Positions 2,425-46,248 of a DNA stretch of 48,552 bases are shown here, one piece after another; the first letter of the stretch is position 1, and every line of letters starts with the position of its first letter. Made by a program: the position numbers and the translations under genes. The DNA comes from a virus: UHGV virus genome UHGV-0142349. One strand, 5' to 3'. The notes below the pieces were generated by a model. That model searched no databases. It had not been told where the DNA came from and saw nothing but the letters and a program-made list of their open reading frames with translations.

Positions 2425-2500
2425 GGCCCCTTAGCTCAGTGGTTAGAGCAGGCGACTCATAATCGCACGGTCATCGGTTCAAATCCGGTAGGGGCCACCA
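2425..2500 (+). tRNA. tRNA with CAU anticodon (elongator type; tRNA-Ile2/lysidine-like or Met)
   Basis: 76 nt cloverleaf: acceptor GGCCCCT/AGGGGCC, D-arm GCTC..GAGC, anticodon loop CTCATAA, T-loop TTCAAAT, 3' CCA; G1-C72 pair argues against initiator; 5' half recalled as close to enterobacterial ileX. Confidence 0.85.
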
Positions 2501-5394: not shown

Positions 5395-6018
5395 ATGACA
5401 AAACATCTTAATGTGGTTTCTTTACCACTTTCTGTGTTGATTGGTTATGAAAAGAACGCTCGCACACACTCCGTGGAGCAGGTAGATCAGATTGTTGCCA
5501 GCATACAGGAGTACGGATGGACTAATCCGATCCTGATAGACGAAAGCAACGTTGTAATTGCTGGTCATGGTCGAATTGCTGCGGCCACTCAGTTGGGGAT
5601 GGATGATGTTCCCTGCATTGTTCTGGAAGGGCTAACGGAGAATCAGAAGAAGGCATATCGTCTGGCCGACAACCGTATTCCGCTGAATGCTGGTTGGGAT
5701 GAAGAGTTGTTAAGCGCGGAGCTTGCAGATCTTGCGGCCGATGATTTTGCTCTGGACTCAATTGGTTTTACTCAGCGCGAACTGGATAACTTATTGAGTG
5801 CGGCGGTCTACGATGACACAGAAGGTATGGATATCCCATTTGAGAAGGATGAGGCCAAATCAGGCGTAAAAGTTCAGTACCTGTCATTTGGAGGTCATAA
5901 AATCCCGGCAACGGATGAGGAAGCGGATCGTTTTGACTGCGCGGTATCTCGTTATGTTGATGATAATGGCAGCTATATCGGATTTGTATCCGCATTGCTG
6001 GCAGGGGAGGTGTGCTGA
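5395..6018 (+). CDS. ParB-like nuclease domain protein (paralog 1)
   Basis: N-terminal ParB/Srx-like motifs (NARTHS.EQV, IAGHGRIAAA, KKAYRLADNR); paralogous to 8685..9275. Confidence 0.65.
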   Translation: MTKHLNVVSLPLSVLIGYEKNARTHSVEQVDQIVASIQEYGWTNPILIDESNVVIAGHGRIAAATQLGMDDVPCIVLEGLTENQKKAYRLADNRIPLNAGWDEELLSAELADLAADDFALDSIGFTQRELDNLLSAAVYDDTEGMDIPFEKDEAKSGVKVQYLSFGGHKIPATDEEADRFDCAVSRYVDDNGSYIGFVSALLAGEVC

Positions 6019-7391
6019 TGCTTCACCTGAATTACGACATAACGCACCTACGCGGCGCGGAATATAACCCGCGTTTTATCGGTGAGGATGATCTTGCGAG
6101 GCTGGCGGAAAGCGTCAGGGAGCTGGGGCTTGTGAAGCCATTGATAGTGCGCGGCGATTTGCTGGTGGCGGGACACCAAAGGACGAAGGCGCTACGTAAG
6201 TTGGGAATAACGCGTGCTGCGGTGTATGTGTTGCCCTGTGAAACGACGGTATACGACGAAGTACGGTTTAACCAACTGCATAACGGAACGGATTTTGACA
6301 GCGGAGATGAGCGTTGCAGGGTGTCCGGTCTGGAAGATAAGCATGGTTTTGTTCAGGTATCGGCAAGCCAGATCTCAGGCAATATGCGCGCGAAAATGGC
6401 ATATGTTCGAAAGAACATAGCGGAACTGGTTATCAAGTATGGTCCGTGGGGTGGTTGTGTTGCTACTCAGTCTGGCGAGGTTATTCACTGTGCTCAGTAT
6501 GCATTAGCAGCGAAGATGACGCGCACACCGCTAACGGTGTTTGTGATCCCTGATGTTGAGAAGGAAAAATACCAAAGTTATCTGAATAAAACTTATGGTG
6601 TATTTGAGTATTCTCATCTGGAGAAAACAACATACATCCAGACGTATGCGCAGCTTATGCGGTTGCGTAATGGTGGCAGCCTGAAATCAAACCTGTATGA
6701 GTCGTTGATCCTCCCGATCATTGCCAAGACGCCAAGAGGAATTGATTTTGGTTCGGGTCAGGGAGACTACGCGCGAATGCTCAGGGCAAAGGGATATAAC
6801 CTGCATGATCTTGAGCTTTTCCGCCGTAAGGGCGCTGGAAACACTCTGGATAGGACCGCAACAAACCGGATGATTGATACGCTGGTGGACGACTTAAAAA
6901 CGCGAGGGCGTTACGACTACGTGATTTGCGATAGCGTTTTGAACTCGGTCGATAGTGTCGAGGCTGAATGGTCCGTTCTGACGGTTCTGAAAGGGCTGTG
7001 TAAAGCTGGTGGGTCAATATTCTTTTCTGGCCGTAGCCGTGGAGAGCTGGAAACAGTCCTGAAGCAGACACAAGCGGCGAGTTCCAAAAGCCGGCTTTAT
7101 TTTATTGATCATAACGGTTTTACCGCGTTGTACCGGAAGGGGCACTGGTTTTACCAGAAGTTTCACTCTGATGAGGAAGTGAAGCAGTTGTGTCGTGTAC
7201 ATGGTTTCAGGATTAAGCGGTCAATATTCAACTGTAAGAGCTGGTATTTGCACGTCATTAACGATGATTCCCTTAGTTGGGCGAGTCTGGAGAAAGCTGT
7301 TCGTTTTGAGTTTGAGTTGCCGTTGCCTGGTGGTTCAACAATCGGACGATCTGATGATGTACTGGCGGCTTTCCGGCCGTTGATTAAGTAG
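6012..7391 (+). CDS. ParB-like N-terminal domain fused to class I SAM-dependent methyltransferase-like domain
   Basis: N-term LLVAGHQRTKALRKLG (ParB-like); C-term Rossmann motif I GIDFGSGQGDYA and DYVICDSVL acidic-loop motif. Confidence 0.6.
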   Translation: MLMLHLNYDITHLRGAEYNPRFIGEDDLARLAESVRELGLVKPLIVRGDLLVAGHQRTKALRKLGITRAAVYVLPCETTVYDEVRFNQLHNGTDFDSGDERCRVSGLEDKHGFVQVSASQISGNMRAKMAYVRKNIAELVIKYGPWGGCVATQSGEVIHCAQYALAAKMTRTPLTVFVIPDVEKEKYQSYLNKTYGVFEYSHLEKTTYIQTYAQLMRLRNGGSLKSNLYESLILPIIAKTPRGIDFGSGQGDYARMLRAKGYNLHDLELFRRKGAGNTLDRTATNRMIDTLVDDLKTRGRYDYVICDSVLNSVDSVEAEWSVLTVLKGLCKAGGSIFFSGRSRGELETVLKQTQAASSKSRLYFIDHNGFTALYRKGHWFYQKFHSDEEVKQLCRVHGFRIKRSIFNCKSWYLHVINDDSLSWASLEKAVRFEFELPLPGGSTIGRSDDVLAAFRPLIK

Positions 7392-7407
7392 TGTGTAGGA
7401 GGCGCTG

Positions 7408-8127
7408 GTGGCTGACAGAATTGAGATAAAGATGGATTTTTCTTCTCAGGATATTCAACGACAACTCCAGCGCCTTGAAGAACGCGAATTGCCGTTCGCA
7501 ATGGCGCTTGCGGCAACCAGAACGGCAAAGGCTTCTCAGGCTGCGATTAAGAATGAAATTAATCGGGTATTTGACAGGCCCACGCCGTGGATTCAGAACT
7601 CTACTTACGTTTTGGCCGCAAAGAAGAGTGATCCTACAGCCATTGTGTATGCTCGTGAATGGGGAGGAACGCCAGCCCCTGTAACGTTGACTCCGCAAAT
7701 CGAAGGTGGCCAACGACAGTACAAACGCTCAGAAGGGGCGCTAAGGGCTGGTGGATATTTGCCTAACGGCTGGCAGCTTGCTCCTGGTCCCGGCGCAAAG
7801 CTGGACAAATACGGGAATATTTCGCGGGGGCAATTACAGCAGGTCTTATCTGGCCTAAGAGTTCAGCGAGATGCGCATCAAAATCGCCGTCAGGGCAAGC
7901 CTACGGAGTTTTTTGTTGTTCGACCTGGTACAAGTAACCCGCTTCAACCAGGCGTCTGGCAGCGCGTTGGGCGGCGTCCTACGTTGATCCTTACGTTTAT
8001 CCAGCAACCTAACTATTCGCAGCGTCTTGATTGGCATGGCGTGGCGCTGCGTGCTGGTGAGGATGCGTTTGCTGATGAAGTCACAAAGGCTATTGATGAC
8101 ATTCTTTCTAAGACCTTCTCTCGTTAA
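7408..8127 (+). CDS. hypothetical protein
   Basis: 239 aa ORF; G/P/Q-rich; no family recognised. Confidence 0.45.
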   Translation: MADRIEIKMDFSSQDIQRQLQRLEERELPFAMALAATRTAKASQAAIKNEINRVFDRPTPWIQNSTYVLAAKKSDPTAIVYAREWGGTPAPVTLTPQIEGGQRQYKRSEGALRAGGYLPNGWQLAPGPGAKLDKYGNISRGQLQQVLSGLRVQRDAHQNRRQGKPTEFFVVRPGTSNPLQPGVWQRVGRRPTLILTFIQQPNYSQRLDWHGVALRAGEDAFADEVTKAIDDILSKTFSR

Positions 8128-8299
8128 TCATCGTGTGGTTGATGGTGTTGTTATGCAGAGTGTATTCACTGTGTTCTGTAGCGTCGCTCGCTGGCTGTCT
8201 GTGGGGGAGCACGAGCATCGTTTCATCGTCCGGCAGAATTGGGTCCTTCTGGCCAAAAGCGTTGGATGCGGGTCATTCGAACCCCGATGTTCGGCTAGC

Positions 8300-8680
8300 T
8301 AAACGTGAAAAAAGTTAGGTTAAAAGTTGCGGTAAAAGAAATTTACTCATCTCATTGAAAAATATCGGGAAAACGTGATTTTTTGCTGTATTTGTGCTGG
8401 TAAAAAGAAAGTAGAAAATTTTCTTTTAGATCATCAAGATACGCGCAGATCTTTAACCAATGTGATGTTGTTCTGATAAAAATCGTTATAAATCATGCAA
8501 ATACATCCAATCTTTTAACCAAAACACCATCTCAAGATCCTTTTTACTTATAAAAACTTAATAAAATCAGATGATTATGCTGGTTTGTGTGATTTTTTAT
8601 GAGTAAAAAGATCGTCATTTTTCTCTTTTAGTATCAATAAGTTAAACAGTTTTCTTTAACCTGTTGTGTTATGGCGGTTA
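8300..8680. promoter_or_regulatory. AT-rich non-coding region with direct repeats (candidate promoter / packaging cos-like region)
   Basis: About 380 bp without ORFs; imperfect direct repeats GTGATTTTTT..GTAAAAAG..TTCTTTTAG near 8384-8440 and 8588-8640; TCTTT(T)AACCAA repeated. Confidence 0.35.
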
Positions 8681-8684
8681 AAAA

Positions 8685-9275
8685 ATGGCTCTAAAAATCG
8701 AATATTTACCAGTCGGTAAGCTGCTCAGATACGCCAAAAATTCACGGACTCATTCAGATGAGCAAGTTGAACAGTTGGTGAACAGTATCCGTGAGTTCGG
8801 TTTCACTAATCCTGTGCTGATCGATGAAAAGAATGAACTGATTGCGGGGCATGGGCGGCTTGCAGCAGCCGAAATTCTGGAAATGGATAAAGTTCCAGCG
8901 ATTCGGTTGAGTAACCTTTCTGAAAAACAGAAGAAGGCTTACAGGATTGCAGATAACAAGCTGGCCTTAAATGCTGGCTGGGATATGCAGCTTCTGGCCG
9001 AAGAAGTCAAAGCGTTAATGGATGATGATTTTGATATTGATCTGCTTGGGTTTAATGATGCAGAGCTTGACGAAATGTTAAGCGATGAACAGCCGCAGGA
9101 AGAAGACGATAATTCTTCCCCTGTTGTTCAAATTAAGTACCTGGCTATTGATAAAGAACGTATTCCCGCGACGGATATGGAAATTGCATTGTTGCTGGAT
9201 GTTTATCGTCAGTACCACGACGCGCATGAAACGCATGAGGGATTTGTTCAGTATCTTGCTAATGGTTGCAAGTAA
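8685..9275 (+). CDS. ParB-like nuclease domain protein (paralog 2)
   Basis: NSRTHSDEQVEQLV, IAGHGRLAAA, KKAYRIADNKLALNAGWD; collinear with 5395..6018 product. Confidence 0.65.
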   Translation: MALKIEYLPVGKLLRYAKNSRTHSDEQVEQLVNSIREFGFTNPVLIDEKNELIAGHGRLAAAEILEMDKVPAIRLSNLSEKQKKAYRIADNKLALNAGWDMQLLAEEVKALMDDDFDIDLLGFNDAELDEMLSDEQPQEEDDNSSPVVQIKYLAIDKERIPATDMEIALLLDVYRQYHDAHETHEGFVQYLANGCK

Positions 9276-29484: not shown

Positions 29485-30012
29485 ATGATGCACTTAAAGA
29501 ACATAAAAGCGGGTAACGCTAAAACACTGGAACAGTATGAGTTAACAAAGAAACACGGAGTTATCTGGCTTTACTCTGAGGACGGAAAAAACTGGTATGA
29601 GGAAGTGAAAAACTTTCAGTCAGACACAATAAAGATTGTTTACGATGCAAATAATATTATTGTCGCCATCACTAAAGATGCCTCCACGCTTAACCCTGAA
29701 GGTTTTAGCGTCGTTGAGGTTCCAGATATTACAGCCAACCGCCGCGCTGATGATTCAGGAAAGTGGATGTTTAAGGATGGAGCTGTAGTTAAACGGATTT
29801 ATACGGCAGACGAACAGCAACAACAAGCCGAATCACAAAAGGCCGCATTGCTTTCCGAAGCTGAATCAGTCATCCAGCCGCTGGAACGCGCTGTCAGGCT
29901 GAATATGGCAACAGACGAGGAACGCACACGACTGGAAACATGGGAACGCTACAGTGTTCTGGTCAGCCGTGTGGATACGGCAAATCCTGAATGGCCACAA
30001 AAGCCTGAGTAA
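29485..30012 (+). CDS. tail fiber assembly protein (current orientation)
   Basis: 175 aa; paralog of 30041..30574 on opposite strand. Confidence 0.7.
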
Positions 30013-30018
30013 AAATTA

Positions 30019-30036
30019 AGGCCCGATATCGGGCCT
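30019..30036. terminator. bidirectional hairpin between convergent tail fiber assembly genes
   Basis: aggcccgatatcgggcct perfect palindrome. Confidence 0.45.
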
Positions 30037-30040
30037 TCTC

Positions 30041-30574
30041 TCATTCTGGTTGTTCGGGAAACGTTACTGGCAGGCTGGAGGTGTCTGTGGATTCGACTTT
30101 CTGCGCGTAGAGCATCCACTCGGTTAATTTTTGTTTATTCTCGTCGGAAATGATGCCCAGCCGTAGCTGTGAGTCCCATAGCTGGGTTTTATCCCTGACA
30201 AGTTGCAACAGGCTTTGCTTTTCATTCTCTGCCTGCTGCCTCTGTTCCTCCTCGGTATAAGTTCGCTTTATCACTACGCCATCTTTGAACATCCATTTAC
30301 CCGAAATATCAGCCCGGCGATTTGCTGTAATATCAGGTAATTCAACGACGCTTGCGCCTTCTGGATTAATTGCTGAAACATCCTTTTCAATACAAATAAT
30401 AACGCCGTTGTGGTCATAGACCATTTTCAACGTATCAGGCTGAAAGTTCTTTTGTTCCTCATACCAGTTTTCCCCATCCTCTGTATAAAGCCATTTGATG
30501 TTAAATTGTTTCGTTAGCTGGTATTGCTCTTTTGTTTTAGGGTTGCCAGCAGTAATATTTTTTAAGTGCATCAT
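30041..30574 (-). CDS. tail fiber assembly protein (alternative)
   Basis: 177 aa, same N-terminal MMHLKNI.AGN motif as 29485..30012 product. Confidence 0.7.
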   Translation of the reverse strand: MMHLKNITAGNPKTKEQYQLTKQFNIKWLYTEDGENWYEEQKNFQPDTLKMVYDHNGVIICIEKDVSAINPEGASVVELPDITANRRADISGKWMFKDGVVIKRTYTEEEQRQQAENEKQSLLQLVRDKTQLWDSQLRLGIISDENKQKLTEWMLYAQKVESTDTSSLPVTFPEQPE

Positions 30575-30576
30575 AA

Positions 30577-31524
30577 TTAAATACTCCCCGCGTTATACCA
30601 CGTTCCATTAATGCAATACTGAATTGGCCTTGCCTGAGTTGTATCAATTAATTCATCACGGTTTCCGTTAACTGACCCCGTAACGACATAACCTGACCTG
30701 TCAGACCAGCCGGGACCATTCCATGTCTGAACAGATGACAGACCGCCAAGACGAATACCTGTAATAAACCTTGAGTTACATTCTGCCTGCGTATATGCAC
30801 CAACATCTCCCGCTGATGGCTTACGTGTTGTGGTGTAAATTTCTGACCAGTCAGCTTCGAATCCGTAACCATCACGCGCTGAACGATAAAAAATACCGCC
30901 GTTCCTGTAATTCACACGGAACTGTACGGCAGGGCAACTCCCCGTATTCATATTGAAGTGGAGGATTAATGTCGATGCGCCACCAATATTTGCGTTATAG
31001 ACCCCGCTATTCCAGTTCCAGCCAACAGCTTTATCATTTCCGACAGTGCTTCCTGTTTGCCCTAAAGCAAATGCAGGCTGCTGGTTTTTCGTGTTGTAGT
31101 CTCGTCGCCAGCCAGGAGCATAAGCATCACCATGATTAATATAAGTGAATTGAGCGTTAGTGATTCCGCCACCGCTGGAAGTGCTCGGGGTGGTTACACG
31201 GATGGTCATGGCTCCTTTATTACCCATAACCTCAATAACGCAACCTGCAAGATGAATAGTTCCACAGCCAGTATCGGTAATAATTTTATTATTGCCGTAT
31301 GACCATGAACATTTGCACATCCAGTATGGGTGATTGAATGCCCCTTGAGAATCAAGCCATTCAATCAATTGTGCCGTTGTCCAGTTCCCTGCCCCTGTAC
31401 TAATAGCACTGTGAAAAGCACGACATGCACCAATATTTTTTGTGAAGGTATCTTTTCCAGGAATATCTGCGCCGTTCTGGTTTTTCTGTAATGCGCCAGA
31501 AGCCTTGTTTATCGTTTCCTGCAA
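30577..31524 (-). CDS. alternative tail fiber C-terminal segment
   Basis: N-terminus (M)QETINKASG parallels LQETVNKAG at crossover in the expressed fiber; likely continues into the right repeat with no own start. Confidence 0.65.
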   Translation of the reverse strand: MQETINKASGALQKNQNGADIPGKDTFTKNIGACRAFHSAISTGAGNWTTAQLIEWLDSQGAFNHPYWMCKCSWSYGNNKIITDTGCGTIHLAGCVIEVMGNKGAMTIRVTTPSTSSGGGITNAQFTYINHGDAYAPGWRRDYNTKNQQPAFALGQTGSTVGNDKAVGWNWNSGVYNANIGGASTLILHFNMNTGSCPAVQFRVNYRNGGIFYRSARDGYGFEADWSEIYTTTRKPSAGDVGAYTQAECNSRFITGIRLGGLSSVQTWNGPGWSDRSGYVVTGSVNGNRDELIDTTQARPIQYCINGTWYNAGSI

Positions 31525-31533
31525 ACCGAGGTT
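31505..31533. repeat. right inverted repeat (crossover site) of invertible segment
   Basis: CTTGTTTATCGTTTCCTGCAAACCGAGGT. Confidence 0.75.
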
Positions 31534-31605
31534 TTTGCGAATTGCCTCTGTGTCGTCTGAACGATATTTTTTCCCGCTTTTAGCAACAATCGCGGTTTAG
31601 AAAGT

Positions 31606-32160
31606 ATGCAATATGGTTATGCGAGGGTGTCAACTTTTGACCAGAATTTGGAATTACAACTGGAGGCGCTCAGGAGTTCAGGATGTGACCGGATTTTTGA
31701 AGATAAAATATCCGGTGCTAAATCAAAACGACCAGGGCTTGATAAGCTACTGAAGGTGTTACGGCCGGGCGATACGGTTATTGTCTGGAAGCTGGATCGA
31801 ATGGGGCGTTCTCTGATTCATCTTGTTGATTTACTTAACCATTTTTTATCAAACAACATTGAGTTTATTTCGATTACGGAAGGGATAAAAATTAGCACTT
31901 CAATTGGCCGCTTTGCCTACACGATGCTGAGTGCAGTCGCAGAGATGGAGCGGGAAAATATGATTGAAAGAACGCGTGCAGGATTGGCGGTGGCAAGGGC
32001 TAATGGCAGGATAGGAGGACGCCGCTCAAAATTGGCCCCAGAGCAATGGGAACAGATCGGAAGGCTTATTGCGAATGGTGTTTCACGTAAGCGGATAGCG
32101 ATTATCTTCGATGTTACCTTATCCACGCTTTACCGCAGGTTTCCGGCTGGGAATCATTGA
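31606..32160 (+). CDS. serine recombinase, DNA invertase (Gin/Hin/Pin/Cin family)
   Basis: N-terminal YARVSTFDQNLELQ with catalytic Ser; small size with C-terminal HTH; adjacent to invertible segment. Confidence 0.85.
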   Translation: MQYGYARVSTFDQNLELQLEALRSSGCDRIFEDKISGAKSKRPGLDKLLKVLRPGDTVIVWKLDRMGRSLIHLVDLLNHFLSNNIEFISITEGIKISTSIGRFAYTMLSAVAEMERENMIERTRAGLAVARANGRIGGRRSKLAPEQWEQIGRLIANGVSRKRIAIIFDVTLSTLYRRFPAGNH

Positions 32161-32341
32161 CTGGAGTTAGGCCAGTAGTATGATGCTCGCAAAACGAGAT
32201 CCAATTTAGATCCTTTTACTGGTGGATTATCGTTCGATCAGTGAGAGACTTCGTGCATGACCGAAAGTGTTGTGGTAGAGTTCTCTTAAAACCACGTAAC
32301 GTGGTTATGATTGTGGGTGTCTGGTTGGAAAGCGACCAGAT

Positions 32342-33319
32342 ATGGAAACAAAAAGCCCGCAGATAAATCTGCGGGCTTCTTGCGACATCCACGGAAAACC
32401 AACAATTAACCATGGGCGCCTCGACAACTCCCATTATACGTTGGTTTTCCGTGGACGCAAGAGCGAACATATGGATAGACCAATGCCGTCTCTACGTTCA
32501 GCTTACGTTTGTAATTTGTCGCCGGAGTTCCAGCCTCCAAAGCACCATACGCACAAGCTGCCGCTGGTGTTATCTGATGCTTTACAGCGCATTAATGGTC
32601 GTGATCTTACGTGTGAGGTTGCGTTCTACGTTAATCAACCGTCAGAGCGGAAACGCCGGATAAACGAGCATCGTCGTCGGGCGATTAATGCTGTGATTGC
32701 TGCGATTTTGCACCATGTAAACATCATTTCTAAGCGGGTTCTGGCCAGTGCTGAGGCGTTGGCTGATTTTTGCGGTCTGTCTACCGTATCCGAAGCTGGG
32801 AACAAGTCTATAACGCGCTGTACAAGGGCGTTGTCGCAACTGAAAGCGTTAGGTTTTATTGATTATGAACGTCGCTGGGATCGGGTGAATAAACAGTATT
32901 GGCCAGCGAAAATAGAGATTCGTGATCAACTGCTGGAAACCGTTGGTATTACTGAACAAGCATGGAGACGTGCGGTTAGCCAGAAACTTAATTACTTCAA
33001 TGCGAAGAATAGCGAACGGCTTAAAAAAGCGATAACGGAGGCTGATTATAAGCGTATTGTTATTCAGGAGCAGATGGAGAATGTATGGCGTCAGAGGAAG
33101 ACGGCCAGAGAGATAAAGGCAAAACAGAAAGCAGCGGAGAGAGCTGCGCGTCTTGTTCGGGAAAAGGGAGAGGCCGAACTTCGTCATCAAATCACTAGAG
33201 AGGTTAGCCAGGAATTTGCTGATGGCATGTATCCTGGAGCTGACCTTGCATATTTACGATCCCTCGTTGAGCAGCGTTATAACAGGTTAAGAAAGACTTG
33301 GAAATCACTCCAACATTAA
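32342..33319 (+). CDS. repA: plasmid replication initiator RepA (IncFII RepA1-like)
   Basis: Segment SITRCTRALSQLKALGFIDYE resembles IncFII RepA1; basic C-terminus; real start may be internal ATG 32471 downstream of leader stem-loops. Confidence 0.65.
   Translation: METKSPQINLRASCDIHGKPTINHGRLDNSHYTLVFRGRKSEHMDRPMPSLRSAYVCNLSPEFQPPKHHTHKLPLVLSDALQRINGRDLTCEVAFYVNQPSERKRRINEHRRRAINAVIAAILHHVNIISKRVLASAEALADFCGLSTVSEAGNKSITRCTRALSQLKALGFIDYERRWDRVNKQYWPAKIEIRDQLLETVGITEQAWRRAVSQKLNYFNAKNSERLKKAITEADYKRIVIQEQMENVWRQRKTAREIKAKQKAAERAARLVREKGEAELRHQITREVSQEFADGMYPGADLAYLRSLVEQRYNRLRKTWKSLQH
32346..32455 (-). ncRNA. putative CopA-like antisense RNA in repA leader
   Basis: On minus strand: 15-bp-stem hairpin (32389..32454) then hairpin 32355..32376 followed by TTTTTGTTT. 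Confidence 0.35.
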
Positions 33320-33439
33320 CCCACCTGAATGATGAATCCGGTTTTACCGGAGGATTATCTACGTCGCAATAAAATATCTGTTCAAAAAACAATCTAAATT
33401 AATTTTCTCTAAACCTGAACACAGCAAAAATATCGCCTT

Positions 33440-33600
33440 TACAGGCATCGGCTAATAAAGTTATCCACAGTTTTGATATGTATATGCAAATGGTTTTTTA
33501 TAATAGATGCACTAAACAAATAAATGCAAAATCACTTTCTTTTATTAAGACTTTCTTTATTTAACTTACGCAGGCTTTGCCTGTGAATATGTTCGCCCTT
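33440..33600. promoter_or_regulatory. putative replication origin (DnaA box TTATCCACA at 33461..33469 plus AT-rich tract)
   Basis: Perfect DnaA box about 140 bp downstream of repA stop, then about 120 bp AT-rich DNA. Confidence 0.5.
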
Positions 33601-33950
33601 GCAGCGAGCTAAAGCTCGCGCCGGTTCGAGTCGCTACGCTCAAATATACCTCCTCCGGCACTTGCCGGAGGCATGGAGCAGCCTGATCATCCTTTTCGAA
33701 ACGGCGCGTTTCGAACTATACAAAATCAATTTATATAAGGCCGAAATAAGGCCTACGGCCGGGCTTTGCAGGAGGAAGGGGCGAGCCTTATCAATAAACG
33801 TCGATAAATACGCACACAGTAGCCATCAGAACGCGATAAAACGTAAGAAACATCATGTCCTATTAGACATAGAAAACTTGTCTTATACGCAATGTAGTAA
33901 ATTTCTATTGCCACATAGGAAAAGATTTCCTACCATCGTAGATATAATAA

Positions 33951-34537: not shown

Positions 34538-34781
34538 GGCTTTCGCGTCGAAAATGAGGCGAAACTGAAAACGAGATTTCATTAACAAATAAGCAACATA
34601 AAAAACGGTGGAAAACGCCCAGGAAAACATGATCTTTTGAGCGGATTTTTTAGATCCGACAATGAACGGTGATCCGGTGGTGCCGATAACGTCCATTATG
34701 TTAAATAGCCCCGTTTTTCTTGAAATTATAACTCACAGGTTATATAGTTAGTGATATAAACTACAGGTTATAGGATTGAGC

Positions 34782-35129
34782 ATGTGGACGGTACTTTTTA
34801 GCCAGCGATTTGACGACTGGCTAAATGAGCAAGAAGACGCTCTTCAGGAAAAGGTTTTGGCTGATTTGAAAAAGCTACAGGTTTACGGACCTGAGTTACC
34901 TAGGCCATATGCCGATACCGTAAAAGGTTCTCGGTACAAAAATATGAAAGAGCTTCGCGTTCAGTTTTCTGGCCGTCCGATAAGAGCCTTTTATGCGTTC
35001 GATCCGATTCGCCGGGCCATCGTTCTTTGTGCAGGAGACAAAAGTAACGATAAGCGGTTTTATGAAAAACTGGTGCGTATAGCTGAGGATGAGTTTGCAG
35101 CACATCTGAACACACTGGAGAGCAAGTAA
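34782..35129 (+). CDS. type II toxin, RelE/ParE superfamily (HigB/Gp49-like)
   Basis: Gp49-like pattern (ELR..., RAFYAFDPIRRAIVLCAGDK..RFY); precedes and overlaps an XRE-HTH gene; start at ATG 34782 (track uses TTG 34776). Confidence 0.65.
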   Translation: MWTVLFSQRFDDWLNEQEDALQEKVLADLKKLQVYGPELPRPYADTVKGSRYKNMKELRVQFSGRPIRAFYAFDPIRRAIVLCAGDKSNDKRFYEKLVRIAEDEFAAHLNTLESK

Positions 35130-35428
35130 TGAGAACATTAGATGAGGCGATTGCCAGCCGTTCACCGGAAAGCCAGGCGCGAATTAAAGAAATGGCAGAT
35201 GAGATGATTCTTGAGGTCGGCTTGCAGATGATGCGTGAAGAACTCCAGTTATCACAAAAACAGGTTGCTGAGGCGATGGGTATAAGCCAGCCAGCAGTAA
35301 CAAAGCTGGAGCAGCGCGGAAATGATTTAAAGCTGGCGACATTAAAGCGTTACGTTGAAGCTATGGGAGGCAAATTAAGCCTGGATGTTGAGCTTCCCAC
35401 AGGAAAACGAATAGCGTTTAACATCTGA
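35129..35428 (+). CDS. XRE-family HTH antitoxin (HigA-like)
   Basis: HTH LSQKQVAEAMGISQPAVTKLE; start overlaps toxin stop (TAATG). Confidence 0.65.
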   Translation: MRTLDEAIASRSPESQARIKEMADEMILEVGLQMMREELQLSQKQVAEAMGISQPAVTKLEQRGNDLKLATLKRYVEAMGGKLSLDVELPTGKRIAFNI

Positions 35429-37683: not shown

Positions 37684-38952
37684 TTATGGTCTGCTTTTCT
37701 GTGCCAGCTTATCAGCACATGTTTTTATCAGATCCTGTAGTGTCCTGGCTGGCAGGTTTGCATCCAGAACGCTGAGTATGCTGTTGTGATCAGCCTGGTC
37801 GACTACTTTGCCTGTCGGTGGTAGTAGCTTGAGCTGAGGATTCAGGTCCTCGTCAAAGCTGATAAGTGCTCTGGCGTTCCTGAGCAGATCAAGAAGTAAG
37901 GCTGATATCACATTTTCCTGAGTCATTGCTGGCAGACTTAGCGCCGCTTTAGTTTTCTCCGTCGCCTTGTCAAACTCTTTGATTAGTGTCTTGCGGTAGT
38001 TCGGTTCCGTTAATAGCCGATTATGCTCTGTTGCCGCGCGGATAATCGTTTTTTCTTGGTACAGTCGTTTAGCCAGATCACGCTCGTACTGTGTTTTTAA
38101 CACGCTGCTGATAGCGTTAAAGGCTTCAATGTAGGCCAGCTTGATATCTTTTACGCCTGGACCGTCGATGCTCTCCATGAGCAAGGTAAATCCGTCTTTT
38201 GTCATGCGATAGATTGTTATTTCGCGGTCGCTTCCTTCCAACGGTCGTTGCTCTTTAAAGAAATGACGCGCCGCAGCTGTGCGAGGAATGCGTAACGCAT
38301 CGATGGCCATAACGATGGAATTGTTTGTGGTGCTGAATGCCTGGGCAACATCGGCCGAGGTTGTGAGTGGCTCGTTATTGCACACCTTAATGTAAAACAT
38401 CGGTTTGGCGTTGAGCGTATCGACAACCTCACGAGCATTGTTTGGCGAGACGGTTACGGTCGCGGCCGTTTGCGCGTTCTGGTTGAAGTAGCAGTCTTCC
38501 AGCCGTTCGAACACATCCCACGCTTGGTTAGTTTCAAGCATTTTGGCGTGACGTGCAGCCCCGCGTTCTGTCCAGAGAATGAGGGAGCGAACGTTACGGG
38601 CGATTTTCACAGAGTGACTTTTAGTTACCTTGTGGTTAACAGAGTAGTTTAAAACTACTCTGTGCTCGTCGCTCTCTCTTTTAGAGGGGGCGTCATTAAC
38701 TGAATCTCTTAAAGAGTTTTTGTTCTTCACATCATTATCTTGAGTCACTTTGTGCTTTAACTCTCGAAGTTCGTTACCTTCAATTTTGAAGTAGTGCTTA
38801 CCTTCAATGAAGCGTTCCTTATTCTCATGATGATTTTGTCGAATGCGTACAGGAGATACGCCGTAAAGCTGTGCCAGTAACTCGGTAGTAATGACAGGGA
38901 TTTGGTTATGCAGGATAGGCTGTAGGGTGTTAACGGTCGGAAGCGTTTTCAT
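37684..38952 (-). CDS. antirepressor (KilA-N/ORF6N-like N-domain, Ant-like)
   Basis: 422 aa; N-terminal ITTELLAQLYGVSPVRIRQNHHENKERFIEGKHYFKIEGNELRELK resembles ORF6N/KilA-N. Confidence 0.65.
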   Translation of the reverse strand: MKTLPTVNTLQPILHNQIPVITTELLAQLYGVSPVRIRQNHHENKERFIEGKHYFKIEGNELRELKHKVTQDNDVKNKNSLRDSVNDAPSKRESDEHRVVLNYSVNHKVTKSHSVKIARNVRSLILWTERGAARHAKMLETNQAWDVFERLEDCYFNQNAQTAATVTVSPNNAREVVDTLNAKPMFYIKVCNNEPLTTSADVAQAFSTTNNSIVMAIDALRIPRTAAARHFFKEQRPLEGSDREITIYRMTKDGFTLLMESIDGPGVKDIKLAYIEAFNAISSVLKTQYERDLAKRLYQEKTIIRAATEHNRLLTEPNYRKTLIKEFDKATEKTKAALSLPAMTQENVISALLLDLLRNARALISFDEDLNPQLKLLPPTGKVVDQADHNSILSVLDANLPARTLQDLIKTCADKLAQKSRP

Positions 38953-39176: not shown

Positions 39177-39435
39177 TCGAGGCTAATCAAATGGTGGTGA
39201 GCCGTACAGGGTTAGCCTTACCGGACACAATGACGAACCGGCGCGGATTTCTCCGCCCCTGTACGACCCACCATAATTTGGGCGTAACAGTGCTCTACGC
39301 ATAAAAAAACCGCTAACGCGGTATGCGCCATCGTGTTATTCAGGAGGCTAATCCCGACCGTAGATTTTGCTACGGCTCGGAAAGTGTCCACCAATGGCGC
39401 ATTCATGTCAATACGGCGGGATTTTAACAGAGACA

Positions 39436-39498: not shown

Positions 39499-39893
39499 TT
39501 CGTGCTGATCGGATTCGCGGTCCTTTCAGCATTACGTTGTTGTATAAACAACCACGCAAGCACAAGCAGCAAATTGATTTTACTCAAAAGGTAATAATAG
39601 TCCACTATTATACATCAAAAAATTGTGGTTCTTGTTGTGTCAGCAAACTCACAGATTGTGGGTAGGTTACTGATTTTGTGAAAATAAACTGTTTTTTTCG
39701 TTTAATTTCTTTCCTATTACTAATCTTAAAATAATCGTAAAATACCTGTGGACCTTCCCGCCGATTCGCACCCGGGCACCGACTTTAGGGGAGGATTTCC
39801 TGTTGCCGTACATGCAAGCACAAGCAGCCGTGCTTGCTCTCGCGTTGTTTTCGTCGGTGGGGATGCCGTGAAACGGCCTGTAAGGGCCATACA

Positions 39894-40016
39894 ATGAAAA
39901 AATACTGTATGTGTATTTTTATCGTTGTTACTGGAGCTTTGTTTACGCCACATGGGGAGGGTTGGAAGATTACTGATAACGCTCTGAATGTGACGATAAA
40001 CATTAGCAGCAAGTAG
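39894..40016 (+). CDS. small hydrophobic protein (40 aa), candidate type I toxin-like peptide
   Basis: MKKYCMCIFIVVTGALFTPHGEGWKITDNALNVTINISSK; followed by terminator at 40022..40045. Confidence 0.3.
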   Translation: MKKYCMCIFIVVTGALFTPHGEGWKITDNALNVTINISSK

Positions 40017-40021
40017 CGATT

Positions 40022-40045
40022 AGGCCCCTTCGGGGGCCTTTTTTA
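40022..40045 (+). terminator. rho-independent terminator
   Basis: ggcccc-ttcg-ggggcc then TTTTTT. Confidence 0.65.
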
Positions 40046-40266: not shown

Positions 40267-40515
40267 TTACTTCTGGTTGTATTGAGCCTTGAGTAACTCA
40301 AAAGATTTTGTCAGCACTTCTTTCAATGACATATCCATTGAGCTGGCGAACGTTTTGTACTCGCGTTTAAATTCAGGGTCGACGTTAAACGCCATTTGTG
40401 CCCCACCTGATTTGGTTCTGGCTGGCGTTTCAGTCGGGTCGAAAACCTGCGGTTGTTCGATCGATGGCGGTACGCCTTTGCTGTTCTTCTTTGGTGGTTT
40501 TGATGGTGCGGCCAT
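40267..40515 (-). CDS. partition protein, ParG-like (ribbon-helix-helix centromere-binding)
   Basis: 82 aa, basic flexible N-terminus, directly downstream of ParA-like ATPase gene (type Ib layout). Confidence 0.5.
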   Translation of the reverse strand: MAAPSKPPKKNSKGVPPSIEQPQVFDPTETPARTKSGGAQMAFNVDPEFKREYKTFASSMDMSLKEVLTKSFELLKAQYNQK

Positions 40516-41829: not shown

Positions 41830-42486
41830 TCATAACCAGTTGACAACACTAACTACGCGGCCAAGAACTTTATAACGCTTAAATTCCTCGTTATTCAGAT
41901 GCTTAGTGTTCATTTCAGCATCCCTTTCGGTTGACAGCATAACAGCATTGTCACCCGGTATGACTCTACAGTGCCTCAAAACAACCAGGCCATTTCTGTC
42001 TTCAAGGGCATAGATCCCCTCATGAATCTCTGTATCGTCTGTATCAATCAGGACTTGGGAGCCAGGGGATATTGTTGGTGACATTAACTCATCGTTGCTC
42101 TGGAGAACTGACAGAGACGATGGGTTGATGTTCTTGCTTCGTAGAATCTCCTGTTCTATCGCCAGCACTGGCTTTTCTCCGGCGTGCGATGCTATGTCAT
42201 TTTTTATAGCTACAAGCCCAGGAATAACAGGAGCGTTAGTATTCTGGGGTGGGAACGGGTTATCTGTTAAGCACGCGATATAAGGCGCTGATGCTTTCAG
42301 GGCGTGCGCGATTTTCTTGATGGCAGGTATAGATGGTTGTCTTAATCCGGCCTCATAGTTCTGCAAGGTGCTTAAGCCTATTCCAGTGACTTGCTGGAGA
42401 TCTCCGGCAGTCATGCCGGATTGTTTCCGTAGAGTCTGAATGCGCAGACCTATTTCTTTCTTGATGTTCTCGTCGTTGCTTTTCAT
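41830..42486 (-). CDS. CI-like repressor (N-terminal HTH, C-terminal S24/LexA-like peptidase domain)
   Basis: HTH in the N-terminal part and an S24-like C-terminal domain; divergent from Cro-like gene. Confidence 0.75.
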   Translation of the reverse strand: MKSNDENIKKEIGLRIQTLRKQSGMTAGDLQQVTGIGLSTLQNYEAGLRQPSIPAIKKIAHALKASAPYIACLTDNPFPPQNTNAPVIPGLVAIKNDIASHAGEKPVLAIEQEILRSKNINPSSLSVLQSNDELMSPTISPGSQVLIDTDDTEIHEGIYALEDRNGLVVLRHCRVIPGDNAVMLSTERDAEMNTKHLNNEEFKRYKVLGRVVSVVNWL

Positions 42487-45180: not shown

Positions 45181-46248
45181 ATGAATAAACAAGTAATTAT
45201 TTCTGACTGGATCAACAACCCTAACAGCCTGTTAAGCACTGATACTGGCTACCTATTACGCCATGTTAATGGTCGTATGGTCAAAAGCGATGAGCACGAA
45301 ACCTTTTTCTTTGTTGAAGACGATGGGCGCATCTATGAGGATGGTTACTCTTATGAAGCCCAAACTGGTTGTATCCCTGCGGAGCTGGTGGACGTAACAG
45401 AAGATCTGCGCAAAGCATGGCTTGAACAGCAGCAGCGCGGAGATGATTACGTAAACACCTATCAGGAACGCCAGAACGCGCGTCTTGCCCGATATATTGC
45501 TCGTGCAGAAAAAGCCAGAAAAGAAGGTGCGGTAGCGCATAAGCGAGCGCATGACCTGTTGGATGTGATCCCGTTAGGCCAGCCGATTTTAGTTGACCAT
45601 TATAGCGCGAAAGGCCATCGCCGCCGTTTGTCTAAAGCTGATGCGTTATTCAGAAAAGCGTTTGTTGAATGCGAAAGTAAAGCATCACACTACGAGAGCA
45701 AAGCCGCAGGTGTTGGTCGTAATGGAATTTCGTCTGATGATCCTGATGCGCTATTTAAGTTGCTTCGTAAGCTGCAAGGCTGCATGAAGTCACACGTCAA
45801 AATGAAGGCCGCAAATAAGGCCATTCGCAAATACAAAAAAGACCAATTACAGCAGCTTTCTGCATTAATCGATCTCAGGTTTACAGAAAGCGAAGCCAAA
45901 GAGTTACTGGCCGGAGATTTCTGTGGGCACATCGGATTCCCTTCATACGCACTGAGCAACAATAAGGCCGAAATCAAACGACTACAGAGCCGTATTAAGG
46001 AGCTTGAATCGGTCAAGTCTGTAACAGGAGCACAGCGCGAAGAATACGACGGCTTTTCTATGGAGATAGATCCAGAGGATAACCGCATCCTGTTTTATTT
46101 CCCTGGCAAACCAGAGGCAAACATTCGTTCGCTGCTTAAATCACGCGCCTTTAAGTGGAGTCCAACCCGTAATGCATGGGTTCGTAAGATTACTCCAAAC
46201 GCCCTGGCTGATGCCCGATATCTGAAAGAATCGCTATTGAAAGCCTGA
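45181..46248 (+). CDS. hypothetical protein (cassette-driven, 355 aa)
   Basis: ORF begins right after conserved leader; no family recognised. Confidence 0.5.
   Translation: MNKQVIISDWINNPNSLLSTDTGYLLRHVNGRMVKSDEHETFFFVEDDGRIYEDGYSYEAQTGCIPAELVDVTEDLRKAWLEQQQRGDDYVNTYQERQNARLARYIARAEKARKEGAVAHKRAHDLLDVIPLGQPILVDHYSAKGHRRRLSKADALFRKAFVECESKASHYESKAAGVGRNGISSDDPDALFKLLRKLQGCMKSHVKMKAANKAIRKYKKDQLQQLSALIDLRFTESEAKELLAGDFCGHIGFPSYALSNNKAEIKRLQSRIKELESVKSVTGAQREEYDGFSMEIDPEDNRILFYFPGKPEANIRSLLKSRAFKWSPTRNAWVRKITPNALADARYLKESLLKA

What the first reader, a model, noticed from the sequence alone, without database searches (positions are those of the whole stretch)
32346..33600. IncFII-type replicon in a phage backbone: RepA, CopA-like antisense leader, DnaA box origin
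The 32342..33319 product resembles IncFII RepA1. Its leader holds a 15-bp-stem hairpin (32389..32454) and a second hairpin (32355..32376) that reads as a terminator on the minus strand, the arrangement expected for CopA/CopT copy-number control. A perfect DnaA box TTATCCACA (33461..33469) and AT-rich tract follow about 140 bp after the repA stop. With parA/parG and higBA and no integrase, this argues for plasmid-like maintenance of the prophage. The true RepA start is ambiguous (32342, 32471 or 32483).
Basis: partly seen in the sequence, partly recalled or inferred. Interest (0 to 1): 0.6.

Follow-up and report, generated by a model that had tools for sequence, protein, structure and literature searches.

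The report
Plasmid replicon that maintains a phage
This 48.5-kb tailed-phage genome carries a working-looking plasmid replication module (a RepA initiator, a probable antisense-RNA copy-number control and a DnaA-box origin) that explains why the phage is always found as a free plasmid in E. coli. The module is a distant, undescribed cousin of the classical IncFII replicon, not a member of it.

Summary
Window 32150-33800 holds a complete theta-type replicon, and the window is a whole circular phage-plasmid.

- **Distribution.** Near-identical copies occur in 71 of 5426 complete E. coli genomes, always on 46-52 kb plasmids and never on a chromosome. They also occur in three Yersinia pestis myophages.
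- **RepA.** It belongs to the broad IncFII/IncL-M RepA family (Pfam, NF040977). It fails the strict IncFII model. It most likely starts at 32483 or 32471, not 32342.
- **Origin.** It is confirmed by comparison. In relatives down to 60% RepA identity, six features keep their order and spacing: a post-stop hairpin, an A-rich motif, a DnaA box at +132 to +145, three ATGCA boxes, an AT-rich tract, and covarying hairpins.
- **Leader hairpins.** They are real and covary, but there is no CopA match, no tap and no copB.
- **Antisense RNA.** A conserved minus-strand promoter (TTGCGT-16-TATAAT) sits inside the large hairpin. It predicts an 81-89 nt antisense RNA made of a 5' tail, a stem-loop with a hypervariable (TTG)n apical loop, and a terminator.

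The RNA, how it represses repA, and origin firing are all inferred, not shown. This is a new variant of a known kind, of moderate interest.

The parts
32157..32184 (+). Candidate repA (sense) promoter, TTGACT-16-TATGAT. The predicted transcription start is near 32191, giving a leader of about 290 nt.
   Evidence: The promoter scan scores it 10 of 12. Both hexamers are conserved in the Salmonella relative. Only the -10 is conserved in L136. It is a prediction only.
32198..32213 (.). Two direct GATCC repeats (Dam sites) 11 bp apart, just downstream of the predicted sense transcription start.
   Evidence: Both repeats are conserved in the window, Salmonella and L136 while the flanks diverge. Their role is unknown. 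An operator or methylation-sensitive control is speculation.
32250..32320 (.). Conserved leader block of unknown role. It contains a small hairpin, AACCACG-TAA-CGTGGTT, at 32290-32306.
   Evidence: It is more conserved than its flanks in relatives at 77-80% identity. The overlapping 41-aa ORF has an in-frame stop in L136, so the block is not coding (read directly from the L136 row of the alignment).
32346..32376 (-). Intrinsic terminator of the predicted antisense RNA (stem-loop II). The stem-loop is 32355-32376 and the U-tail is 32354-32346.
   Evidence: Fold. Across 10 haplotypes, 13 of 13 pairs are 100% paired. Three pairs change on both sides and none is broken. Slid controls give 42-62% paired.
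32377..32462 (+). Large hairpin of the repA leader. Outer stem 32377-83 with 32456-62, 16-bp stem 32388-32403 with 32440-32455, and a 36-nt loop.
   Evidence: L136 carries two compensatory double changes. Type B relatives have an unrelated stem sequence around the same loop motif.
32433..32460 (-). Predicted antisense-RNA promoter. The -35 is TTGCGT (32460-32455), the 16-nt spacer is the 3' arm of the hairpin, and the -10 is TATAAT (32438-32433).
   Evidence: The block TTCGC(T)CTTGC.T-N16/18-TATAAT-N-GGAGTTGTCGAGGC is conserved in two leader types whose stems are otherwise unrelated. The transcription start was not determined.
32346..32429 (-). Predicted antisense RNA of about 81-84 nt. It has a 9-nt 5' tail (AGUUGUCGA), stem-loop I, then stem-loop II (the terminator) and a U-tail.
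   Evidence: The same tail, SL I, SL II architecture is predicted for all 14 type A and type B haplotypes. There is no Rfam family match.
32398..32409 (.). Hypervariable segment forming the apical loop of predicted stem-loop I. Alleles include (TTG)2-4 and small indels.
   Evidence: It is the only indel hotspot in 1.65 kb among 9 near-identical copies. At least 8 alleles occur in type A1 and 6 at the equivalent position in type B.
32483..33319 (+). repA, a 278-aa initiator of the IncFII/IncL-M RepA superfamily. An alternative in-frame start at 32471 adds 4 aa and is preceded by AAGAG.
   Evidence: Pfam PF02387 at E=1.3e-43. NF040977 at 232 bits against a cut-off of 70, and TIGR03474 at 79 against 447. 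Relatives are 274-283 aa. Only the 32483 ATG is conserved in frame in Salmonella and L136.
33337..33395 (+). Spacer between repA and the origin, resembling the IncFII CIS region. It has a hairpin TCCGG-TTTTA-CCGGA (33337-33351) followed by GG, and an A-rich motif CAAAAAACAATCT (33383-33395).
   Evidence: The hairpin plus GGAGG and the TATAAAAAAC-type motif occur at the same places in all relatives and in a classical IncFII plasmid. The 13-mer is identical to pEC404/03-3, E=0.02. The function is inferred from R1/R100.
33461..33469 (+). DnaA box TTATCCACA at the left edge of the origin.
   Evidence: It is the only one in the window. It lies at +142 after the stop. Relatives have it at +132 to +145 (TTATTCACA in Salmonella, TTATCCACT in L005, lost in L007), and classical IncFII has it at +176.
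33470..33570 (.). Origin core. Three ATGCA boxes (33484-88, 33507-11, 33524-28) sit inside invariant blocks (TATGCAAATGGTTTT; ATGCAAAATCACT). An AT-rich tract follows, with a tandem ACTTTCTTT(T)ATT(T)AA repeat.
   Evidence: The blocks are invariant or nearly so across 7 loci down to 60% RepA identity. GC is 25%. RepA binding and DNA unwinding here are inferred.
33571..33628 (.). Right edge of the origin. It holds hairpin A (33571-33583), an inverted DnaA-box-like TGTGAATAT (33582-33590), and hairpin B GCGAGC-TAAA-GCTCGC (33604-33619) within the conserved CCCTTGCAGCG...CGCGCCGGTTCG.
   Evidence: Hairpin B's 3-bp core takes 4 forms (AGC/GCT, GAC/GTC, GCG/CGC, ACG/CGT) and is Watson-Crick in all 7 haplotypes. 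Hairpin A takes 3 compensated forms. L007 has a perfect inverted box, TGTGGATAA.
33652..33715 (.). Two further GC-rich hairpins, CCTCCGGC-ACTT-GCCGGAGG (33652-33671) and TTCGAAAC-GGCGC-GTTTCGAA (33695-33715).
   Evidence: They are conserved in Salmonella and L136. A different hairpin, CCCGGC-AWAG-CCGGG, replaces them in type B. Their role is unknown. A priming signal is speculation.

Best explanation
Window 32150-33800 is the plasmid-maintenance replicon of a 48.5-kb temperate myophage that lives as a free circular plasmid.

**Initiator and origin.** RepA is a cis-acting-type initiator of the IncFII/I-complex/IncL-M superfamily. It is translated from 32483, or from 32471 in this lineage. It is proposed to act on the origin directly downstream. 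That origin comprises a post-stop hairpin and A-rich spacer, one DnaA box, three ATGCA boxes as likely RepA sites, an AT-rich unwinding tract, an inverted DnaA-like box, and structured DNA. This is the layout of oriR in R1/R100.

**Proposed copy-number control.** Control would come from a constitutively made antisense RNA of about 81-89 nt.
- It is transcribed from a promoter embedded in the large leader hairpin (-35 at 32460-55, -10 at 32438-33).
- It ends at the 32355-76 terminator.
- Its stem-loop I carries a hypervariable apical loop, which probably kisses the complementary part of the leader hairpin loop.
- Full pairing then lowers RepA synthesis.
- Loop variation, including (TTG)n slippage, would set specificity, that is incompatibility.

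**Shown here.** Family membership, conservation and covariation of the elements, and exclusive plasmid location of the element.

**Inferred.** That the RNA exists, where it starts, how it represses repA, RepA binding sites, and origin firing.
For: **Replicon identity**
- Pfam PF02387 at E=1.3e-43 and NF040977 at 232 bits against a cut-off of 70.

**Extrachromosomal state**
- 82 places in 71 of 5426 complete E. coli genomes, all on plasmids.
- 59 PLSDB plasmids of 46-52 kb, including the ATCC 25922 plasmid.
- The phage backbone is co-distributed: 72 genomes, 76 plasmid places and 1 chromosomal place.
- The window's ends are contiguous in circular relatives.
- The same genome was deposited as infectious Yersinia phages.
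- No integrase was found.

**Origin**
- Ordered, spaced elements are conserved down to 60% RepA identity and are collinear with a classical IncFII plasmid.
- The hairpins covary.
- GC is 25%.
- R1's oriR uses the same 9-mer, with RepA bound next to it (PMC5883639).

**Antisense control**
- The fold has z = -8.8.
- The terminator has 3 compensated pairs and none broken.
- The stem is compensated in L136 and replaced outright in type B.
- TTGC.T-N16/18-TATAAT is conserved in both leader types.
- The predicted RNA architecture is the same in 14 haplotypes.
- The hypervariable segment maps to the stem-loop I apex in both types.
Against: - No transcript data exist, so the promoter is only a consensus match. 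Its -35 is 3 of 6, and the automatic scan did not list it.
- The minus strand folds the whole hairpin somewhat better than the sense strand, with more G.U pairs. That would suit a longer antisense RNA holding the whole hairpin.
- The one concrete repression mechanism I tested was not better than shuffled controls and showed no cognate specificity. In it, the released 3' arm pairs with the start codons.
- There is no strong Shine-Dalgarno sequence before 32483.
- In Salmonella and L136 a better-placed AUG opens an out-of-frame upstream ORF of unknown relevance.
- The DnaA box alone is within chance, and one relative (L007) lacks it.
- Autonomous replication of this fragment has not been tested.
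Confidence: 0.72

Rival explanations
1. The antisense RNA is about 115-120 nt and contains the whole large hairpin plus the terminator. It would be transcribed from a promoter upstream of the hairpin, on the minus strand around 32465-32500. The conserved loop would act as an RNA loop, not as a promoter.
For: The minus strand folds the complete hairpin more stably than the sense strand in nearly all haplotypes, with 2-5 G.U pairs against 0-1. A weak TAGAGA-17-TATGTT match can be read upstream in the window by eye.
Against: - That upstream match is not conserved in Salmonella, L136 or type B (sequences).
- It does not explain why a perfect TATAAT with TTGC.T at 16-18 nt is conserved in both leader types.
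- Under this model the hypervariable segment falls in the loop in type A but mid-stem in type B. Under the internal-promoter model it is the apex of stem-loop I in both.
- G.U counts rest on few independent events, and one (Salmonella) points the other way.
Confidence: 0.17
2. There is no regulatory antisense RNA. The small hairpin is a bidirectional terminator or attenuator after the invertase gene. The large hairpin acts only in cis, as a leader structure affecting repA translation or mRNA stability, or as a DNA cruciform or operator.
For: On the + strand the small hairpin is followed by TTCTT, 190 nt after the invertase stop. No RNA family match was found. No transcript evidence is available.
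Against: - The long uninterrupted U-run is on the minus strand, where the only thing to terminate is transcription entering from within the repA leader.
- Promoter-like hexamers face that terminator and are conserved.
- The arms covary while the loop is conserved, which argues against a double-stranded protein site on the arms.
- A hypervariable loop in otherwise near-identical copies is what specificity determinants of antisense systems look like.
Confidence: 0.09
3. The repA region is a passenger or remnant. The element would be maintained another way, either integrated or by a different replicon in the window.
For: One of 77 backbone matches in E. coli lies on a chromosome (not examined). 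A DUF3560 protein at 45181-46248 has a weak, partial primase-like PHROG hit.
Against: - No chromosomal copy of the repA region exists in 5426 genomes.
- RepA is 100% conserved in a cluster of 525 sequences.
- No other initiator was recognised.
- There is no integrase.
- The replicon and the backbone are co-distributed, 71 against 72 genomes.
Confidence: 0.02

Closest known systems
IncFII basic replicon of R1/R100 (copB-copA/tap-repA-CIS-oriR)
   Same: - The initiator is in the same Pfam/NCBIfam superfamily and has the same size (278-282 aa against 285 aa).
- The origin lies just downstream of repA, after a hairpin and an A-rich spacer.
- A single consensus DnaA box, TTATCCACA, sits at the origin edge, followed by presumed RepA sites and an AT-rich tract.
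- The short motifs are collinear (PMC5883639).
- A countertranscript gene lies inside the repA leader and ends in a terminator hairpin.
   Different: - RepA fails the IncFII equivalog model, 79 bits against 447, and is only about 31-40% identical over part of its length.
- There is no CopA (RF00042) match, while the control plasmid scores 106 bits.
- There is no tap leader peptide and no copB. The upstream gene is a phage tail-fibre invertase.
- The predicted RNA has a different fold, and its promoter is embedded in the target hairpin.
I-complex replicons (IncB pMU720, IncI1 ColIb-P9: RNAI/Inc RNA, leader peptide, activating pseudoknot)
   Same: - The RepA superfamily and the repA-spacer-origin layout are the same.
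- A relative with 63% identical RepA and the same origin core (L005) carries an Rfam PK-repBA pseudoknot directly upstream of repA, so this RepA clade borders the I-complex.
   Different: The window has no PK-repBA match even at E<=10. It has no leader peptide ending at the repA start and no I-complex-type single stem-loop RNAI.
Phage-plasmids P1/P7, SSU5, N15, D6
   Same: - It is a temperate tailed phage kept as a low-copy plasmid, with its own replicon, a ParA-type partition ATPase and a toxin-antitoxin pair.
- It has P1/P7-like C4 antisense immunity RNA upstream of an ant-like gene, and an invertible P1-like tail-fibre segment.
   Different: - The replicon type differs. P1 uses an iteron RepA and N15 a primase-type RepA (from my own knowledge).
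- A protein search (tblastn) of 50,697 phage records found an IncFII-family RepA like this one only in the three Yersinia phages of this same lineage.
- This 46-52 kb element was not found described, under the accession numbers and phage names I searched, in any held paper. The phage-plasmid papers I read were consulted about other groups (pSLy3, which is a 114-kb SSU5-like element, and P1/SSU5/N15/D6).

Membership tests
IncFII RepA protein superfamily (Pfam PF02387; NCBIfam NF040977 RepA_IncFII_LM) | Full-length match above the curated cut-off | tested here: met
   PF02387 at E=1.3e-43, 149.8 bits against 22.9. NF040977 at 232.2 bits against 70, covering profile positions 1-266.
IncFII RepA proper (TIGR03474 equivalog; R1/R100 RepA1) | Score above the equivalog cut-off | tested here: not met
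   79.3 bits against a cut-off of 446.9. The classical IncFII control RepA scores 581.5. tblastn identity to IncFII RepA is 31-40% over 29-45% of the query.
CopA/CopT control (IncFII) | Antisense RNA matching Rfam CopA (RF00042) | tested here: not met
   No hit at gathering threshold or at E<=10. The positive control pEC404/03-3 scores 106.3 bits.
CopA/CopT control (IncFII) | tap leader peptide translationally coupled to repA | tested here: not met
   No conserved small ORF ends at the repA start. The ATG in the hairpin loop (32412) is absent in type B. The upstream AUG is in frame in the window but out of frame in Salmonella and L136.
CopA/CopT control (IncFII) | copB (repA2) repressor gene upstream of the leader | tested here: not met
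   The upstream gene is a serine DNA invertase. The only small ORF (32241-32366) has an in-frame stop in L136 (read directly from the L136 row of the alignment).
CopA/CopT control (IncFII) | A countertranscript is actually made from the repA leader and lowers RepA synthesis | not testable with these tools
   Only predicted, from a conserved promoter-like site, a covarying terminator and a common fold.
IncFII/I-complex type origin | Origin immediately downstream of repA, with a DnaA box next to conserved initiator-site-like repeats and an AT-rich tract | tested here: met
   The ordered elements are conserved in 7 loci and collinear with a classical IncFII plasmid. GC is 25%. Origin activity itself was not tested.
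I-complex control (PK-repBA, RF01089) | Pseudoknot-forming leader matching the Rfam model | tested here: not met
   Absent from the window at E<=10. Present in relative L005 at 49.3 bits against 45.
Phage-plasmid | A complete phage gene set together with a plasmid replicon and partition genes, extrachromosomal in hosts, with virions known | tested here: met
   Terminase, portal, capsid, baseplate and tail fibres are present, with RepA and ParA. All E. coli copies are on plasmids. It was deposited as Yersinia phages isolated on Y. pestis EV76. The virion evidence is record metadata only.
ParA/ParG type Ib partition | ParG-like ribbon-helix-helix adaptor encoded after parA | tested here: inconclusive
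   ParA matches CbiA/ParA models. The 82-aa ORF 40267-40515 has no Pfam hit and matches only phrog_6024, of unknown function.
HigBA-type toxin-antitoxin | Gp49/HigB-like toxin followed by an HTH antitoxin | tested here: met
   PF05973 at E=5.7e-23 for 34776-35129, and HTH_3 at E=3.9e-10 for 35129-35428. Activity was not tested.

The most novel reading that the evidence does not exclude
The leader encodes a previously undescribed antisense copy-control module, unrelated to CopA or I-complex RNAI.
- Its promoter is built into the very hairpin it targets: the hairpin's 3' arm is the promoter spacer, and the -10 sits in the loop.
- Its specificity loop diversifies rapidly, partly through (TTG)n slippage.
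- That would generate incompatibility variants, letting related phage-plasmids co-reside or superinfect.
- The same RepA/origin clade has swapped control modules at least three times: this module, this module plus a truncated RepA paralogue, and an I-complex pseudoknot.
Probability: 0.35. Interest if true: 0.6.

Novelty: new variant of a known kind. Interest (0 to 1): 0.42.

Why it matters
- **It is common but effectively untyped.**
  - It is present in about 1.3% of complete E. coli genomes, including the quality-control strain ATCC 25922. It also occurs in Salmonella, E. fergusonii, E. albertii and Klebsiella, and in phages that infect Y. pestis.
  - PLSDB lists no replicon type for these plasmids. 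The phage records call RepA hypothetical, and PHROGs files it under unknown function.
  - A paper that deposited fragments of the same phage did not recognise a plasmid stage.
- **It adds an initiator class to phage-plasmids.** Phage-plasmids would be known to use an IncFII/I-complex-class initiator.
- **It gives a typing marker.** Both repA and the hypervariable loop could serve.
- **It gives a tractable model.** The module is compact enough to study how antisense control modules are exchanged and diversify on one initiator/origin chassis.

Tried and rejected
1. **Start at 32342.** Rejected. Salmonella has a 4-nt deletion in the hairpin that breaks the long ORF, and relatives are 274-283 aa.
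2. **Leader peptide from the ATG in the hairpin loop (32412, 83 aa).** Rejected. It diverges as an overlapping frame would, and the ATG is missing in type B.
3. **A copB-like 41-aa ORF (32241-32366).** Rejected. It has an in-frame stop in L136 and mostly non-synonymous differences.
4. **RBS-sequestration switch.** In this idea the antisense RNA takes the 5' arm, and the freed 3' arm pairs with both candidate AUGs.
   - The minimum-energy folds show this pairing in every haplotype.
   - Duplex energies are no better than shuffles, with 37 to 749 of 1000 shuffles at least as good, and there is no cognate specificity.
   - It is not supported and is kept only as an idea.
5. **Strand assignment from G.U pairs.** Inconclusive.
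6. **Sequence similarity of the GC-rich hairpins to the region downstream of oriR in a classical IncFII plasmid.** None was found beyond short motifs, so a 'priming signal' remains speculation.
7. **Motif scan of one-genome-per-species contigs.** No hits.
8. **A 14-mer scan of viral contigs.** Mostly chance hits, and only about 7 were real.
9. **Literature searches by accession, phage name and topic.**
   - No description of this replicon was found.
   - pSLy3 turned out to be a 114-kb SSU5-like element, not this one.
   - The preprint that deposited vB_EcoM-613R2/473R2 noted only ParB-like genes.
Full report
**What the window is**

The 1.5 kb around the finding is 98.6-98.8% identical to three 49-kb circular Yersinia phage genomes, vB_YpM_39/41/44, isolated on Y. 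pestis EV76. In those records RepA is annotated as a hypothetical protein.

It is also 97-99.5% identical to 59 plasmids of 46-52 kb from E. coli, E. fergusonii, E. albertii and K. aerogenes. One of them is the 48,488-bp plasmid of E. coli ATCC 25922.

In 5426 complete E. coli genomes the region occurs in 71, at 82 places, all on plasmids and none on a chromosome. The terminase-portal segment has almost the same distribution: 72 genomes, 76 plasmid places and 1 chromosomal place.

The last 700 and first 700 bases of the window lie side by side in related circular plasmids. About 80-85% of the whole window aligns at 96-99% identity to the Yersinia phages.

The window is therefore one complete circular phage-plasmid with no chromosomal flanks. 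Its gene content is:
- lambda-type terminase, portal, ClpP protease and capsid E;
- contractile-tail baseplate genes and P1-like tail fibres;
- a serine invertase;
- a CI-like repressor, an Ant-like protein and a ParA ATPase;
- a HigB/Gp49-like toxin with an HTH antitoxin.

No tyrosine integrase was found among the ORFs scanned.

**RepA**

The long ORF 32342-33319 matches Pfam IncFII_repA at E=1.3e-43, but only from residue 52.

The start can be placed by comparison.
- A Salmonella Weltevreden plasmid whose RepA is 85% identical has a 4-nt deletion inside the large hairpin. That deletion destroys the long ORF, and its RepA is annotated at 277 aa.
- Relatives at 60-86% identity are 274-283 aa.
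- Only the ATG at 32483 (MPSLRS) is conserved in frame in Salmonella and L136.
- The ATG at 32471 lies 7 nt after AAGAG and is in frame in this lineage. The homologous AUG is out of frame in both relatives.

Family placement is as follows.
- NF040977 RepA_IncFII_LM scores 232 bits against a cut-off of 70.
- The IncFII equivalog TIGR03474 scores 79 bits against 447. A classical IncFII RepA scores 581 on the same model.
- tblastn identity to IncFII RepA is 31-40% over part of the protein.

So the protein is a member of the IncFII/I-complex/IncL-M superfamily, not IncFII proper. PHROGs holds the family as phrog_7060, 'unknown function'. Among 50,697 phage records, only the three Yersinia phages encode a relative. 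PLSDB gives no replicon type for these plasmids.

**The origin**

The perfect DnaA box at 33461-33469 is unique in the window. By itself it is within chance, since 0.44 are expected. What makes it convincing is comparison.

Downstream of repA, all relatives down to 60% RepA identity share the same elements in the same order:
1. a hairpin followed by GGAGG just after the stop;
2. a TATAAAAAAC-type A-rich motif;
3. a DnaA box at +132 to +145 (TTATTCACA in Salmonella, TTATCCACT in L005, lost in L007);
4. invariant blocks containing three ATGCA boxes;
5. an AT-rich tract, 25% GC here;
6. a small hairpin;
7. an inverted DnaA-like box, perfect (TGTGGATAA) in L007;
8. a hairpin within the conserved CCCTTGCAGCG...CGCGCCGGTTCG.

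The variable 3-bp core of that last hairpin takes four different forms and is Watson-Crick in all seven haplotypes.

A classical IncFII plasmid (pEC404/03-3) has the same order: post-stop CCGG hairpin, the identical 13-mer CAAAAAACAATCT, then a DnaA box at +176. In R1 the same 9-mer marks the edge of the 188-bp oriR, with RepA binding next to it (PMC5883639).

I infer, but have not shown, that the ATGCA blocks are RepA sites and that the AT-rich tract unwinds. The covarying hairpins may be a priming signal like the R1 G-site (my own knowledge). No sequence similarity supports that.

**The leader**

Both hairpins exist. The minus strand of 32335-32475 folds at -70.7 kcal/mol with z = -8.8.

Rfam finds no CopA, no PK-repBA and no other convincing family, even at E<=10. 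The IncFII control gives CopA at 106 bits.

Relatives give three kinds of evidence that the structures are selected.

1. *The terminator.* All 13 pairs are 100% paired in 10 haplotypes. Three pairs change on both sides and none is broken.

2. *The large hairpin.* L136 has two compensated double changes. A second leader type ('type B', RepA 60% identical) has an entirely different stem of 19-21 bp around the same loop motif.

3. *A conserved promoter-like block.* Read on the minus strand, the block shared by both types is TTCGC(T)CTTGC.T, then 16 or 18 nt, then TATAAT, then N-GGAGTTGTCGAGGC. This is a -35-like TTGC.T and a perfect -10 at proper spacing, facing the terminator.
   - In the window the -35 is at 32460-32455.
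   - The spacer is the hairpin's 3' arm.
   - The -10 is at 32438-32433, inside the loop.

Starting about 7 nt downstream gives an RNA of 81-89 nt. In all 14 haplotypes of both types it folds the same way: a 9-nt 5' tail, stem-loop I, then stem-loop II (the terminator) and a U-tail.

**A hypervariable loop**

Among nine copies that differ at about 45 scattered sites in 1.65 kb, all the indels and ten variable columns fall within 32398-32409.

With metagenomic copies added, at least eight alleles are seen there, including (TTG)2, (TTG)3 and (TTG)4. Six alleles occur at the equivalent position in type B.

Under the internal-promoter model this segment is the apex of stem-loop I in both types. 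That is where specificity (incompatibility) determinants sit in known antisense systems. Under the alternative model, in which the whole hairpin is in the RNA, it falls in the loop in type A and in mid-stem in type B.

This, together with the conserved hexamers, is why I prefer the internal promoter. The longer RNA is not excluded, because the minus strand folds the full hairpin slightly better and has more G.U pairs.

**How repression would work**

This is the weakest part. There is no tap-like peptide, no copB and no pseudoknot match.

Minimum-energy folds suggested a switch. With the 5' arm occupied by the antisense RNA, the 3' arm pairs with both candidate start codons. However, duplex energies are no better than shuffles, and non-cognate arms pair as well as cognate ones. 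I therefore do not claim this mechanism.

Repression by duplex formation, through cleavage, destabilisation or remodelling of the leader, is inferred by analogy with other antisense-controlled replicons.

**Relatives show module swapping**

- L005 has a RepA 63% identical and the same origin core, in a conjugative-plasmid context. It has an I-complex-type PK-repBA pseudoknot upstream of repA.
- Type B loci place a 158-162 aa truncated RepA paralogue between the same control element and repA. It is 30% identical to RepA residues 11-134. Its stop overlaps the repA start as ATGA.

One initiator/origin chassis is therefore combined with at least three leader architectures.

**Literature**

Searches by accession, phage name and topic found no description of this replicon. 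The preprint that deposited partial genomes of the same phage (vB_EcoM-613R2/473R2) noted only ParB-like genes. It stated that these do not necessarily indicate a plasmid stage. The pSLy3 group turned out to be a 114-kb SSU5-like element unrelated to this one.

**Verdict**

It is wrong or unproven in the details:
- the replicon is not IncFII proper;
- the RNA is not CopA;
- there is no tap and no copB;
- the start is not 32342;
- the RNA probably holds only half the hairpin;
- parG is unverified.

It is a new variant of a known kind and of moderate interest. It is mainly useful as an unrecognised, fairly common phage-plasmid replicon with an unusual and diversifying control element.

Noticed in passing
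window 39190-39376 (minus strand) and 37684-38952 (minus strand): Rfam C4 antisense RNA (70.8 bits) and isrK (65.7 bits) lie directly upstream of a 422-aa ORF6N/Rha (Ant-like) protein. This is the layout of a P1/P7-type c4-ant secondary immunity system, and it sits alongside a CI-like HTH/S24 repressor at 41830-42486.
   Followed up: partly
window 39748-40044 (+): A full-length ryfA RNA match (143.5 bits) lies between the partition genes and the C4/ant region. It overlaps a small ORF (39834-40016). It may be a type I toxin-antitoxin-like addiction module on the plasmid.
   Followed up: no
window 2425-2497 (+): A phage-borne tRNA with anticodon CAU (67 bits). The Yersinia phage record annotates it as tRNA-Met.
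   Followed up: no
L004 2516-3004; L007 2528-3004; L008 1236-1712: In relatives with 60% identical RepA, a 158-162 aa truncated RepA paralogue sits between the antisense control element and repA. It is 30% identical to RepA aa 11-134 and scores 46 bits on NF040977. Its stop overlaps the repA start as ATGA. It may be a regulator or a long 'leader' gene.
   Followed up: partly
L005 2869-2989: A relative with 63% identical RepA and the same origin core carries an I-complex PK-repBA pseudoknot (RF01089, 49.3 bits) instead of the hairpin/antisense module. Control regions have therefore been exchanged on one RepA/origin chassis.
   Followed up: partly
window 32198-32213: Two GATCC (Dam) sites 11 bp apart, just after the predicted repA promoter, are conserved in relatives at 77-80% identity. 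They may be an operator or a methylation-sensitive element.
   Followed up: no
window 32250-32320: A strongly conserved non-coding block in the repA leader, including the hairpin AACCACG-TAA-CGTGGTT (32290-32306). No function has been assigned.
   Followed up: partly
window 32119-32127: A near-consensus DnaA box, TTATCCACG, lies inside the invertase gene about 30 nt upstream of the predicted repA promoter. It is not conserved in the Salmonella relative.
   Followed up: partly
window 5395-9275: Three ParB_N-domain proteins lie next to the terminase genes (5395-6018; 6012-7391, fused to a methyltransferase; 8685-9275). They are more likely linked to packaging or DNA modification than to partition. 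A published preprint took such genes as ambiguous evidence for a plasmid stage.
   Followed up: no
window 29485-32160: An invertible tail-fibre segment with two alternative fibre C-termini and assembly genes in opposite orientation lies next to a Hin/Cin-type invertase. It is about 95% identical to the phage P1 tail-fibre region. The repA promoter abuts the end of the invertase gene.
   Followed up: partly
E. coli complete genomes: One of 77 matches to the terminase-portal segment lies on a chromosome, whereas the repA region is never chromosomal. This could be an integrated relative with a different maintenance module, or an assembly issue.
   Followed up: no
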